From Leucoraja ocellata (Eukaryota), in assembly GCA_036785375.1 (NCBI GenBank), contig JAWMAR010000182.1, positions 1,364,001-1,428,000 of the forward strand: DNA of 64,000 nucleotides. Reading direction: 5' to 3'. Shown piece after piece: positions 22,601 through 25,600 of this stretch. Positions within the stretch are counted from its first letter, which is position 1; each line of letters starts with the position of its first letter. The notes below the pieces were generated by a model. That model searched no databases, was not told the DNA's origin, and saw nothing but the letters and a program-made list of their open reading frames with translations. A program made the translations under genes and the position numbers.

Positions 22601-25600
22601 TTTACTGTAGGCATAATTGCAAAATAAAACACGTTAATGTCCAAGAGAGACAGAACATGCTGCAGTAACTCAGCGGGACAGGCAGCATCTCTAGATAGAA
22701 GGAATGGGTGACGTTTCGGGTCGCGACTTTCCTTCAGACCGAAGCGGTCAGATGCCCTCAATACTACCCTCATCCCTAACCAGTCTGAAGAAGGGTCTCG
22801 ACCCGAAACGTCACCCATTCCTTCTCTCCTGGGATGCTGCCTGTCTCGCTGAGTTTTCCAGCTTGTTGTGTCTATCTACCCTACTAATACAACTTCGTGG
22901 TTGTGGTTCTACGACTTGATCAGTCTGGTGACCTTGAAGAGTTGCACTTCACATGCCATTTTCAACATTTTTTGCATGGTTTGAAAATGATAACTAAACC
23001 TTTACTTTTTAATTATGTGTGATTCCCTCCTCGCCATCTTTCGTTCTGTCATTCCCAAATACATGGGGCTGTGTGAACATGCAGAAAGCCCGCGCGTACA
23101 CAACGGGCCGAACGGCCCATGCAATTGTAAGATAAATAGCCTTAGGAAAACCTCGCCTTGTCTACGGCCAACAATGGCTTGGTTTCAAGATAGGCGTTCG
23201 TTGGCGAGTTATGATTTATTGTTTTGGCCAGGTTCAGTGGAAGCCTGATCTCAATCTTTGAATAAAAATATTCTTGGAGCAGGTTTGCGTTTGGAAAGTC
23301 TGACCCAACAGAGTGCTGTCTAAAGTCCAAATCTGACCCATTTTAAAGTGGTCTGCAACAACCTTTCCTTATCTCGTGTTCTCTGGATGAAGCCGGGTTT
23401 TGATAAATTGATTGGATGATACAACATGGATACAGGCCCTTCAGCCCGCCGAGTCCAAGCTGGCCATTGATCACCTGTTTACTCTAGTTTCATGTTATCC
23501 CACTTTCGCGTCCATTCAATACATTCCAGCAGATCGAGCGGGGCAATAAACATAAGAGGTATTTCATTAAATGTGAGGGGAATTGGCCGAGAGTAAACTG
23601 GTGAAATACAAAAATGCAACAGCTTGCATTTATTTGATCTATCTGTATCACATACAATGCAGGGGTGTGCAAGCAAGTTACCTTTGCATTCGTGACATTC
23701 TGTGCAACTCCATATCATCGCTACCGCGAAATCCCTTTGCAAAAGGGTTATTTTCTATTTTGAGTTGGGTAATCTAAATTAGAAATCGAAAAATGTTTTA
23801 AATTCCTTAAATTCCTTAATCAAATATTTTAAAACAGCATCCCCGCGTAGACGCAACCCGTACGTCTATAATGACAATGCAAAAACAATGAGCTTGACGT
23901 TAAGATGGACTTTAAGTGCATACCTGACCCATTATTTTTTCAACGATAGACACAAAGTGCTGGAGTAACTCAACGGGTCAGGCAGCATCTCTGGAGAGAA
24001 AACATGGGTGCCGTTTCGGGTCGGGACCCTTCTTCAGACCCTCTAGAGTAAAGTGATGTGTGAAAAAAGGTCCCGACCCGAATTGTCACATCATTTTTTT
24101 CTCCAAAGATGCTGCCTGACCCGTTGAGGTACTCCAGCCATTTATGTCTATATTTGGTATAAACCAGCATCTGCAGTTCTTTGTTCATCTTCAACTTTTC
24201 TTATTTCACCGCGTGATTTTTTTTTCGTGTTTAAAGAAAGTACGTGTTTTTACTCATACCTTCCGAACGTTTTTAAACACAGTTAAGACTCAAGTGACTG
24301 AGGATGCAAGGAAATGTAAAGGACTGGAGGAACTGAACGAGTCAAGCAGCATCTGTGGAGGGAATGGACGGGCGACGTTTCGGGCCGATACATTTATTTT
24401 TTAATGATATTGTCGGTCTGAAACGGGATGGAGCACATGTCGGTATACTTTATAGTAACGTTAATCTGTCAGTGAATTGTGTAAAGCTAAACCTGTGATA
24501 TAAACCTTTGCGTCTTTTTGCGAGGTGACCGGTCATGCTGATTTGGAAGTTTCGTTATCGCCTAGAAATCCAATGGGCACAAAAAACAGTGGTCGAAAAG
24601 GGAATCTAAAAGCCTTTGAATTGGATTTCGTTGCTGAATAATTGCAAACCCGGCTCAAAGAGGCGGTATAAAAGTGCACATGCTGTCCGGGAAACTTCCA
24701 AGTAATGTCTCAAGTAATTTACTGTCGCTTTCCAAACACACGTGTTAGCCGCTGCTTTGTCTGAATTGATCGGACGTTTGGTATGTTGACCATTATAGCT
24801 GAGGTCTGCCAAGCTACCAAGAGCCGACTCCGGCCACGTCCGTTCCAGGTAATGCTGGTGCAACAGTCGCCCTTGCTAGCACTTAATGAATTAGCCAGGT
24901 CAGATTGAAAATGAAGACATATAGAACCTAGTTTTGTGTAGGGAAGAATTACGGATGCTGGTTTACACCGAAGATAGACACAACATGCTGGAGTAACTCA
25001 GCGGGACAGGCAGCATCTCTCGACCCGAAACGTCACCCAATCCTTTTATCCAGAGATGCTGCCGGACCTAGAATTAATCTAGAATTTTGTGTCTATCTTC
25101 AGTAGAACCCAGTTTTTAATTATTTCTTACTTTATTGTTAAATTTATTATTTATTATTCTAAAATAATAATATTTTATTATTATTATTTGTAACAAAAGT
25201 TGTCATTATTTGTAACAAAAGTTGTCATTATTTGTAACAACAGTTGTTATCCCACTGCTAGGAACATGTACGGCCAATATTTTACACAACTAAATATCCT
25301 GCAGTGTATATTTTGGGCAAGTCTAAAGGACCAATTCAAACCTTAAAACTTTCCGTATATTCCGTGAGCAACTTGTGTCGGCGATTTTGAAAAGTCCTTT
25401 TCCAAAATTCTTTGCTTTTAAGGTGAGAAAATATTATCCCGTGCTGATCCCGTCAACGGCACAACGAGGTGTAATTAGTCTACAAGTAATACTCAACAGC
25501 ATAACTTTGGGAGCTGGCGTTAGAATCAATTGGGTTTTCGTAAGTGTGAAGTCAGGGCGCCGTGGCATTATATAAATACAAGGCAATACGCCACCGAAGC

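What the first reader, a model, noticed from the sequence alone, without database searches (positions are those of the whole stretch)
22645..22878. High-copy repeat carrying a minimal hammerhead-ribozyme core (Penelope pLTR), about 25 copies in 64 kb
Seen: the commonest short repeat here contains CTGAAGA-A-GGGT(CTCG)ACCC-GAAACGTC (22785-22812, minus strand at about 16574-16601; CTTG loop variant at 20190-20217). A second subfamily has CTGAAGA-A-GGGT(TTCG)GCCC-GAAACGTT (minus 40449-40422; partial at 61272-61297), and 7146-7173 has CTGACGA-AGGTT(CCT)AACCT-GAAA. The CUGANGA and GAAA boxes stay fixed while stem II varies but keeps pairing. At 10240-10400 and 20040-20110 the repeat is contiguous with a GIY-YIG endonuclease C-terminus. 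Established: Penelope-like retroelements carry minimal type-I hammerhead motifs in their pLTRs. Inference: stem III collapses to the palindrome ACGU with no loop, so a monomer cannot fold, but two same-sense copies could pair as a dimeric hammerhead cleaving after GUC/GUU. Stem I pairing looks weak (about 2 bp), so activity is uncertain. At this density the motif would be extremely abundant genome-wide, and I do not know of a description for these particular families.
Basis: partly seen in the sequence, partly recalled or inferred. Interest (0 to 1): 0.72.

Follow-up and report, generated by a model that had tools for sequence, protein, structure and literature searches.

The report
Penelope retrotransposon stubs carrying minimal hammerheads
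This repeat is the short end piece of a Penelope-type jumping gene, present at an estimated 1.5 million copies in a genome that likely belongs to a shark or ray; it carries a tiny, already known RNA motif predicted to cut itself, broken in most copies, and the one oddity is that copies pile up starting at the motif's front edge, which likely marks where the template RNA begins.

Summary
Real, and of a known kind. The repeat is the pLTR end of Neptune-type Penelope-like retroelements: it follows a GIY-YIG ORF end by about 80-260 nt, and intact young elements (1233-codon frame, 3946-bp tandem units) exist elsewhere in the genome. It carries the minimal type I hammerhead described in 2014; dimer cleavage is also published. 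The window holds 42 arms, not 25, but only 4 keep core, stem II and palindrome. The flagged locus is a head-to-head inverted pair with one broken core, so it cannot supply a same-sense dimer. Genome-wide: 92,939 exact intact motifs and about 1.5 million arms (4.4% of sampled DNA). Stem I has 2 bp, against 4 or more in 19 of 23 related families. That suggests run-off from a short uncleaved RNA; cap and splicing signatures were not found. The scan noted this family and this edge before, on other DNA.

The parts
22644..22739 (-). Left arm: 5'-truncated pLTR copy starting 2 nt before the hammerhead core (C3 = 22737); core broken (A9 to G, stem II mismatched); no tail
22740..22770 (.). Spacer between the arms, not assigned to the element; ends in a 7-nt word repeated after the right arm (22764-22770 and 22876-22882), a possible target-site duplication of the right arm alone
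   Evidence: 7-nt repeats arise in about 1 of 100 shuffled flank pairs
22771..22878 (+). Right arm: 5'-truncated pLTR copy with 14-18 nt of 3' UTR, intact motif and downstream hairpin; no tail
22785..22812 (+). Minimal type I hammerhead motif: CUGAAGA, extra A, stem II 22793-22796/22801-22804, GAAA, palindrome 22808-22811, predicted cut after 22812; stem I only 2 bp (22783-22784 with 22813-22814)
   Evidence: sequence; 33.3 bits, E 4e-7 with a model built from 19 non-elasmobranch families; pairing table
16574..16601 (-). Intact motif in another head-to-head pair (arms 16478-16610 and 16601-16699) joined through a 3-nt microhomology
20190..20217 (+). Motif with intact core, stem II and palindrome, in the inverted pair 19742-19867 / 20176-20314
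40345..40460 (-). Solo arm of the younger UUCG subfamily with intact motif (40422-40449) and a 9-nt target-site duplication
58044..58161 (+). Solo arm with a 12-nt target-site duplication; core broken (G12 to A)
10259..10402 (-). GIY-YIG endonuclease C-terminal remnant, 215 nt upstream of the arm at 9919-10058
20047..20109 (-). GIY-YIG endonuclease C-terminal remnant, 195 nt upstream of the arm at 19742-19867
7018..7175 (.).

Best explanation
These repeats are short, 5'-truncated insertions of the pLTR end of Neptune-type Penelope-like retrotransposons, each carrying a minimal hammerhead motif that is broken in most copies and is predicted to cut only as a protein-assisted dimer in transcripts of tandem full-length elements. 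Mechanism, step by step: (1) shown: full-length elements with RT, a CxxxxCxxC linker and GIY-YIG exist, some in head-to-tail tandems with same-sense intact motifs 3946 bp apart. (2) inferred from the anole element (PMC11167929): the element's protein nicks a target and starts reverse transcription inside its RNA at one of two sites; shown: young copies end at +90..+95 or +130..+134 from C3. (3) shown: 55-77% of copies that reach the core stop within 10 nt in front of it, whichever 3' end they have; inferred: most templates end there, so the product is a 95-135-nt stub. (4) shown: many stubs are joined head-to-head at mostly unique junctions with short microhomologies; inferred: both nicked strands prime, and the two cDNA ends join. 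(5) shown: no excess of 5' ends at the cleavage site; inferred: cleaved linear RNA is rarely the template. Inserted stubs, the flagged locus included, are likely inert passengers.
For: 27 of 29 endonuclease C-termini in the random sample plus window have an arm within 700 nt downstream. Pfam GIY-YIG on L017 (E 1e-4, above cut-off), RVT_1 and GIY-YIG on the intact frame (both below cut-off). Tandem of three motifs in L131/L132. Closest named proteins are from Chiloscyllium, Rhincodon and Mobula at 66-73% identity. In 80 metagenome loci of distant relatives, 19 of 37 with enough downstream DNA carry a motif within 600 nt of the ORF end; 37 sense against 2 antisense hits; stem I, which the descriptor did not require, has 4 or more pairs in 19 of 23 families against 2.3 with shuffled partners. 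Core 0 of 11 columns variable among five subfamily majorities against 25 of 88 others, p = 0.03. Target-site duplications in 35 of 298 anchored arms against 5.9 in shuffles. CpG sites in the motif decay at 26-28%.
Against: No cleavage or expression data: no run on record as RNA and contigs only. The dimer fold is predicted at -6 to -7 kcal/mol against -21 to -25 for the best alternative dimer. Stem I is 2 bp, shorter than in most relatives, so the motif may be a weak or non-cleaving descendant. Descriptor and model scores are low in information: an antisense stretch of a CR1-type LINE ORF scores 26-30 bits with the same model. Core columns are somewhat better kept in copies than downstream columns (80 changes against 141 expected), more than pure neutral decay predicts, though the downstream hairpin (+65..+78) is kept about as well and cells are not independent. 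The clade name rests on the linker motif as described in PMC8557442, not on a tree.
Confidence: 0.85

Rival explanations
1. The stubs are a self-propagating non-autonomous family (SINE-like or retrozyme-like monomers): solo arms keep an internal promoter and the RT start site, are transcribed from about -3 and are copied again by the Neptune protein.
For: Defined unit with both ends clustered; target-site duplications on solo arms; only 46 endonuclease ends and 24 RT hits for 662 arms; core columns better kept than average downstream columns; the five letters before the core are invariant in all five subfamily majorities.
Against: Every subfamily class has both stopped and continuing copies at similar rates, 0.55-0.77, so stubs track the autonomous lineages and form no lineage of their own; flanks of solo copies are mostly unrelated (10 of 121 with a partner, none a common leader); no tandem monomer arrays of intact motifs.
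Confidence: 0.15
2. The pile-up at the front edge is a property of reverse transcription or joining, not of the RNA end: the enzyme stalls on a protein-bound or folded hammerhead, or the palindromic letters at -5..+3 and target microhomology capture the cDNA there.
For: 6 of 56 close inverted junctions are symmetric about that palindrome; in 10 of 35 copies with duplications the duplication runs into the letters at -2..+2; no extra-G cap signature; palindromic junctions are read as self-priming in PMC3846280.
Against: Long young copies pass their upstream pLTR without stopping at 7 of 7 loci (p about 0.004 at a stop rate of 0.55); 121 of 191 stopped copies are solo, with no palindromic junction; the profile is one-sided, falling to 0.6 per base upstream.
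Confidence: 0.3
3. The motif is no longer a ribozyme in this lineage: it is kept as a protein-binding, promoter or RNA-pairing element after stem I decayed.
For: 2-bp stem I against 4 or more in 19 of 23 relatives; unfavourable predicted dimer fold; no genomic trace of cleavage; in the anole element ribozyme mutants still insert in vitro (PMC11167929); 8 of 9 Xenopus dimers did not cleave (10.64898/2026.07.22.740005).
Against: All 11 core bases are invariant across subfamilies up to about 20% diverged from their majorities, and the changes that occur are those a hammerhead tolerates (loop 2, C17/U17, U-A to U-G in stems I and II); a 2-bp helix I is described for D. virilis Penelope (PMC4209133).
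Confidence: 0.25
4. The palindromic units are MITE-like DNA elements with terminal inverted repeats.
For: Hairpin shape of the locus.
Against: Arms are homologous to the 3' end of an RT-endonuclease ORF element; junctions and arm lengths differ from pair to pair; most arms are solo.
Confidence: 0.02

Closest known systems
Minimal type I hammerheads of metazoan Penelope-like elements (Cervera and De la Pena 2014, PMC4209133; main text parts 1-2 of 4 and one third of supplement file 2 read)
   Same: Place in the pLTR, core boxes, extra base 9.1, G10.1-C11.1 pair, palindromic 15.2/16.2 without loop 3, mostly single copies of truncated elements, some pairs on opposite strands; dimer model and low activity already stated there, also for Neptune elements of fishes.
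   Different: Helix I is 2 bp (4-5 bp typical there; 2 bp in D. virilis); helix II 4 bp; count per genome 92,939 exact intact motifs against about 4,000 and 9,000 reported for coelacanth and Xenopus (different descriptors); no cartilaginous fish in their Table S1.
EN+ Penelope-like elements, Neptune clade (Craig et al. 2021, PMC8557442; passages read)
   Same: RT followed by Zn-finger-like linker and C-terminal GIY-YIG; heavy 5' truncation, partial tandems, adjacent inverted 5'-truncated copy, optional 30-40-bp tail.
   Different: Insertions are mostly reduced to 95-135-nt stubs; about 1.5 million arms, far above the tens of thousands given there for the most abundant Naiads; long proline-rich N-terminal insert (1233-codon frame).
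Poseidon element of the green anole, PAc (Frangieh et al. 2024, PMC11167929; main text read)
   Same: Two 3' end classes downstream of the hammerhead that match the two RT start sites and the tail; no sign that cleaved RNA is the template.
   Different: Here the motif lies about 160 nt before the start codon, not across it; a sharp 5' boundary at the motif's edge is not mentioned in the parts read.
Adineta vaga Penelope insertions (Arkhipova et al. 2013, PMC3846280; passages read)
   Same: Head-to-head inverted pLTRs, palindromes at the junction, target-site duplications of 8-10 bp, solo pLTRs, initiator-like letters in the pLTR.
   Different: Low copy there; solo pLTRs there are read as recombination or deletion products, whereas here solo arms carry their own duplications.
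Non-LTR retrozymes of animals (10.64898/2026.07.22.740005; parts 1-3 of 5 read)
   Same: pLTR-derived, hammerhead-bearing, non-coding; one chondrichthyan in their sample has them.
   Different: Retrozymes are defined as tandem repeats with a motif in consecutive units; these copies are dispersed solos and inverted pairs.

Membership tests
PLE minimal type I hammerhead | Core boxes CUGANGA and GAAA with U16.1-H17 | tested here: met
   Right arm and 134 of 309 spanning arms; invariant in five subfamily majorities
PLE minimal type I hammerhead | Helix II closed by G10.1-C11.1 with an extra base after A9 | tested here: met
   4-bp stem in all five majorities; same in 22 of 23 distant families
PLE minimal type I hammerhead | Palindromic 15.2/16.2, no loop 3 | tested here: met
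   ACGU in four of five majorities; the fifth reads as a CpG-decayed form; ACGU, AUAU, AGCU and longer palindromes in relatives (required by that descriptor)
PLE minimal type I hammerhead | Helix I of about 4-5 bp | tested here: not met
   2 bp in window, old and young subfamilies; 4 or more in 19 of 23 relatives. A 2-bp variant is described for D. virilis (PMC4209133), so this places it at the short end of the family, not outside it
PLE minimal type I hammerhead | Located in the pLTR of a Penelope-like element | tested here: met
PLE minimal type I hammerhead | Self-cleavage as a dimer | not testable with these tools
   Only a folding estimate; no raw RNA reads
Neptune-clade EN+ PLE | Single ORF with RT and C-terminal GIY-YIG | tested here: met
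Neptune-clade EN+ PLE | Zn-finger-like CX2-5CxxC linker between RT and endonuclease | tested here: met
   CxxxxCxxC in L017 and L132 frames; motif as described in PMC8557442
Neptune-clade EN+ PLE | RT groups with reference Neptune sequences in a tree | not tested
   No labelled reference set was held
Neptune-clade EN+ PLE | Tandem, partial-tandem and inverted insertions with optional tail | tested here: met
Non-LTR retrozyme | Tandem repeats with an intact hammerhead in consecutive units | tested here: not met
   0 of 53 intact motifs with an intact same-sense partner within 1 kb
Canonical Rfam hammerhead families | Match to an Rfam hammerhead model | tested here: not met
   No hammerhead family among the 10 matches at E up to 5 in the window

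The most novel reading that the evidence does not exclude
The stubs are a Penelope counterpart of retroviral strong-stop DNA. A short RNA class begins 2-4 nt in front of the hammerhead core, which would also explain why stem I shrank to 2 bp; the RT starts internally 90-130 nt downstream, runs off that end and inserts a fixed 95-135-nt unit, alone or as two cDNAs joined head-to-head. Only read-through or circularised tandem transcripts yield long copies. About 480,000 insertions would then map the RNA 5' end and both RT start sites of a vertebrate Penelope element at base resolution, in what may be the largest stock of hammerhead motifs in one genome.
Probability: 0.4. Interest if true: 0.62.

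Novelty: new member of a known kind. Interest (0 to 1): 0.36.

Why it matters
The class, the motif and the dimer idea are published, so the finding as written is a new example. Two things add value. First, scale: about 93,000 intact motifs and an estimated 1.5 million pLTR stubs (4.4% of sampled DNA) with a still-young source family make this genome a dense record of Penelope insertion. Second, that record speaks to an open question, what the hammerhead does in the Penelope cycle: 5' ends avoid the cleavage site and collect at the motif's front edge. This gives a sharp prediction (RNA 5' ends at -3/-2, uncleaved templates) that one 5'-end mapping experiment and one in vitro RT assay can settle.

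Tried and rejected
Rfam scan of the window: no hammerhead family. Second hammerhead family in the genome: the other-palindrome pattern gave 446 matches against 91 in the control; of 20 fetched, the recurrent word lies antisense in a CR1-type LINE ORF and others in another LINE or unique DNA, none at a Penelope ORF end (LINE identity read from my recall of the peptide, and from the window's own RVT_1 ORF); rejected as a chance match. A second pattern returned 321 matches that read as mutated copies of the same family. Intron between the stop codon and the motif, as in D. virilis: only 11 genomic matches to a directly joined form, no GT..AG joint among the best-supported joints listed in contigs (554 and 27 joints not shown); not supported. 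Extra G from a cap: ratios 0.82 (expected 0.51-0.74) at the -2 start and 0.83 (expected 0.80-0.85) at the -3 start; weak or absent, although G was over-represented in the small sample. Length-defined stop: rejected, tailed and untailed copies peak at the same place. Alignment artefact: a uniform-truncation simulation gave a false peak at -4 (77 called for 20 true) and inflation at -3 (43 for 24), far short of the 7- to 10-fold excess seen. Expression: no RNA holder listed, contigs only; no evidence either way. Host gene: none found among 58 long frames. Lunse et al. (PMC5785218) could not be read. Literature searches for a description in sharks or rays or of a strong-stop product returned none in titles and abstracts listed; Repbase and Dfam were not available, and supplements of the preprint and file 1 of PMC4209133 were not seen.

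Full report
1. Observation. A profile built from 167 near-complete arms finds 42 arms in the window and none in reversed control sequence. Of the 42, 16 span the motif, 6 keep the 11 core bases plus H17, 4 also keep stem II and the palindrome, and 3 also a 2-bp stem I. The flagged interval is two arms facing away from each other: 22644-22739 on the minus strand, core broken, and 22771-22878 on the plus strand, motif intact. A transcript through it is predicted to fold as one long hairpin (-150 kcal/mol), which would bury the motif. Rfam has no hammerhead match in the window. Coordinates below are relative to C3 of the core (0); the predicted cut is between +27 and +28.

2. Abundance. The genome has 3.44 Gb. 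One exact 30-letter word from the window occurs 16,420 times; the intact pattern 92,939 times, control 0. In 148 stretches of 10 kb taken at arbitrary places (1.478 Mb) there are 662 arms, which scales to 1.54 million (bootstrap 1.36-1.72 million) and 4.4% of bases. Of the 662, 309 span the motif, 134 keep the core, 53 also stem II and palindrome, 45 also the 2-bp stem I.

3. What it belongs to. The window's endonuclease remnant led to longer copies with a CxxxxCxxC linker and a GIY-YIG domain. 27 of 29 endonuclease ends in the first random sample plus window have an arm within 700 nt, mostly 80-260 nt. An RT query found many long open frames; L131/L132 hold a head-to-tail tandem with a 3946-bp unit, a 1233-codon frame and three same-sense intact motifs. 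The closest named proteins come from sharks and a ray, so the host is likely a cartilaginous fish. The linker is the Neptune mark described in PMC8557442; I built no tree. Relatives of the repeat are held in runs of at least six coded organisms.

4. Is it a hammerhead? Within the genome, five subfamily majorities differ at 25 of 88 non-core columns and 0 of 11 core columns (p = 0.03); the changes inside the motif are loop 2, C17/U17 and two U-A to U-G swaps, with no double compensatory change. Across families the case is strong. Of 80 metagenome loci (best of 509) encoding relatives at 33-63% identity, 37 had the ORF end and 250 nt beyond; 19 of the 37 carry a motif within 600 nt, and hits are 37 sense against 2 antisense. 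The descriptor required the core, stem II and palindrome but not stem I, which has 4 or more pairs in 19 of 23 distinct families against 2.3 with shuffled partners; on 19 aligned families 7 of 8 pairs change on both sides. A model built from these 19 ranks the window's copies first, the flagged one at 33.3 bits. Two cautions: the elasmobranch stem I has only 2 bp and the dimer fold is 15-18 kcal/mol above the best predicted alternative; and an antisense stretch of a CR1-type LINE scores 26-30 bits with the same model, so position in the element, not the score, carries the argument.

5. Arrangement. Among neighbouring arms within 20 nt, 103 are head-to-head, 25 same-sense and 10 tail-to-tail. 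In 56 of 88 head-to-head pairs with a tight junction the breakpoints are nearly all different; 6 are symmetric about the palindrome at -5..+3, 2 about stem II. Solo arms carry target-site duplications: 14 of 121 against 1.2 shuffled, 35 of 298 against 5.9 in a wider set. Young long copies end at +90..+95 or +130..+134, as expected from two RT start sites and the tail (PMC11167929). No intact motif of 53 had an intact same-sense partner within 1 kb; 6 such pairs shared a 10-kb stretch. So a cis dimer is available mainly in tandem full-length elements.

6. The 5' boundary. Of 662 arms, 596 had a complete 3' part and enough flank, and 588 could be mapped on a panel of 81 endonuclease-linked natural copies. 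182 start at -6..0 (peak -3), a rate of 12.7% per base against 0.8-1.3% at +15..+45 and 0.8% at -30..-11. At +27..+29 there are 11 starts against 11.4 expected from the flanks. A uniform-truncation simulation through the same pipeline makes a false peak at -4 and inflates -3 about 1.8-fold, not enough to explain the excess. The stopped copies are truly truncated: 29 of 191 have pyrimidine-rich DNA upstream (background 13.4%) against 64 of 66 continuing copies. The stop holds in every subfamily class (0.55-0.77) and for tailed and untailed copies. Loose ends at the same two places are among the best supported in contigs of other coded organisms. Among 20 loci chosen for long frames, 7 independent ones reach an upstream pLTR and all 7 pass it (p about 0.004 at 0.55). 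Against a promoter reading: no clear extra-G signature, duplication-defined starts are spread from -14 to +2 with fillers and microhomology, and the five letters before the core are not shared by distant families. That they fit an initiator consensus is my recall, not a test. An intron ending at the motif, as in D. virilis (PMC4209133, PMC2377424), was not supported.

7. Mechanism. Best reading (0.85 for identity and inertness of the stubs): target-primed reverse transcription from internal start sites gives very short cDNAs; nicking and extension of both strands, shown for the anole protein (PMC11167929), would give head-to-head pairs; the hammerhead is likely under constraint in source elements and matters, if at all, in tandem transcripts with protein help. 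For the boundary I give about 0.4 to run-off from a short RNA that starts there from the element's pLTR, 0.15 to self-propagating solos, 0.3 to a stall or joining bias, the rest to something else.

8. What is known. Read: PMC4209133 (parts 1-2 of 4; supplement file 2, part 1 of 3 and a term search; file 1 not searchable), PMC11167929 (parts 1-2 of 4 and passages), preprint 10.64898/2026.07.22.740005 (parts 1-3 of 5; supplements not seen), passages of PMC8557442, PMC6765202, PMC2377424 and PMC3846280. Lunse et al. (PMC5785218) was not held; I saw its title and the review's summary only, and its figure of about 150,000 variants over all databases is recalled. The motif, dimer model, low activity, inverted pairs, junction palindromes and tail are all in these papers. 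Searches listed no description for sharks or rays and none of the 5' boundary; Repbase and Dfam were not available. The scan's earlier notes report the same family and the same edge in this and other genomes; I had measured the edge before looking, and they are not independent support.

9. Verdict. New member of a known kind; interest 0.36. The ribozyme claim is ordinary and untested for activity; the useful part is the scale and the insertion record.

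Noticed in passing
L111-L118, L124-L130 (e.g. L114 2970-3013 +, L128 2947-2990 +): The antisense strand of a common CR1-type LINE ORF contains a word with both hammerhead boxes, a 3-bp stem II, an AGCU palindrome and a 2-bp stem I; it scores 26-30 bits with the Penelope model. Probably a coding-constrained chance match, and a warning for descriptor counts.
   Followed up: partly
L131 5056 to L132 5717 (G000:C8:5.606-5.617 Mb): Three-unit tandem of a young Penelope element, units 100% identical, 3946-bp period, with a short flanking duplication: the family is recently active.
   Followed up: yes
L132 1805-5503 +: The intact frame has a long proline/glycine/alanine-rich stretch of some 350 residues before the RT; relatives are mostly 750-950 aa. 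It recalls the low-complexity inserts described in rotifer Penelope ORFs (PMC3846280).
   Followed up: no
L148 3004-8914: Head-to-head pair of two 3-kb truncated copies, one with the tail: the same layout as the stubs at large scale.
   Followed up: no
window 17954-18002 +: A motif-like hit (23.4 bits) outside any arm of this family.
   Followed up: no
window 10575-11984 - and 53-424 +: LINE reverse-transcriptase remnants (RVT_1); the first is a 470-codon open frame.
   Followed up: no
window 2611-2848: Inverted repeat of 97-nt arms, 92% complementary, 44 nt apart, unrelated to this family; also 13047-13545 with 26-nt arms. Possibly MITE-like DNA elements.
   Followed up: no
L160 and L161 (near 1500): Two near-identical places where a word like the ORF end is joined directly to the motif, as a spliced copy would be; could equally be a deletion between repeated letters.
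   Followed up: no
arm positions -6..-1 and +64..+69: In the older subfamilies the letters before the core can pair with the conserved downstream hairpin word (6 bp), an alternative pairing that might regulate folding; one inversion junction (L040 7762) uses it.
   Followed up: no
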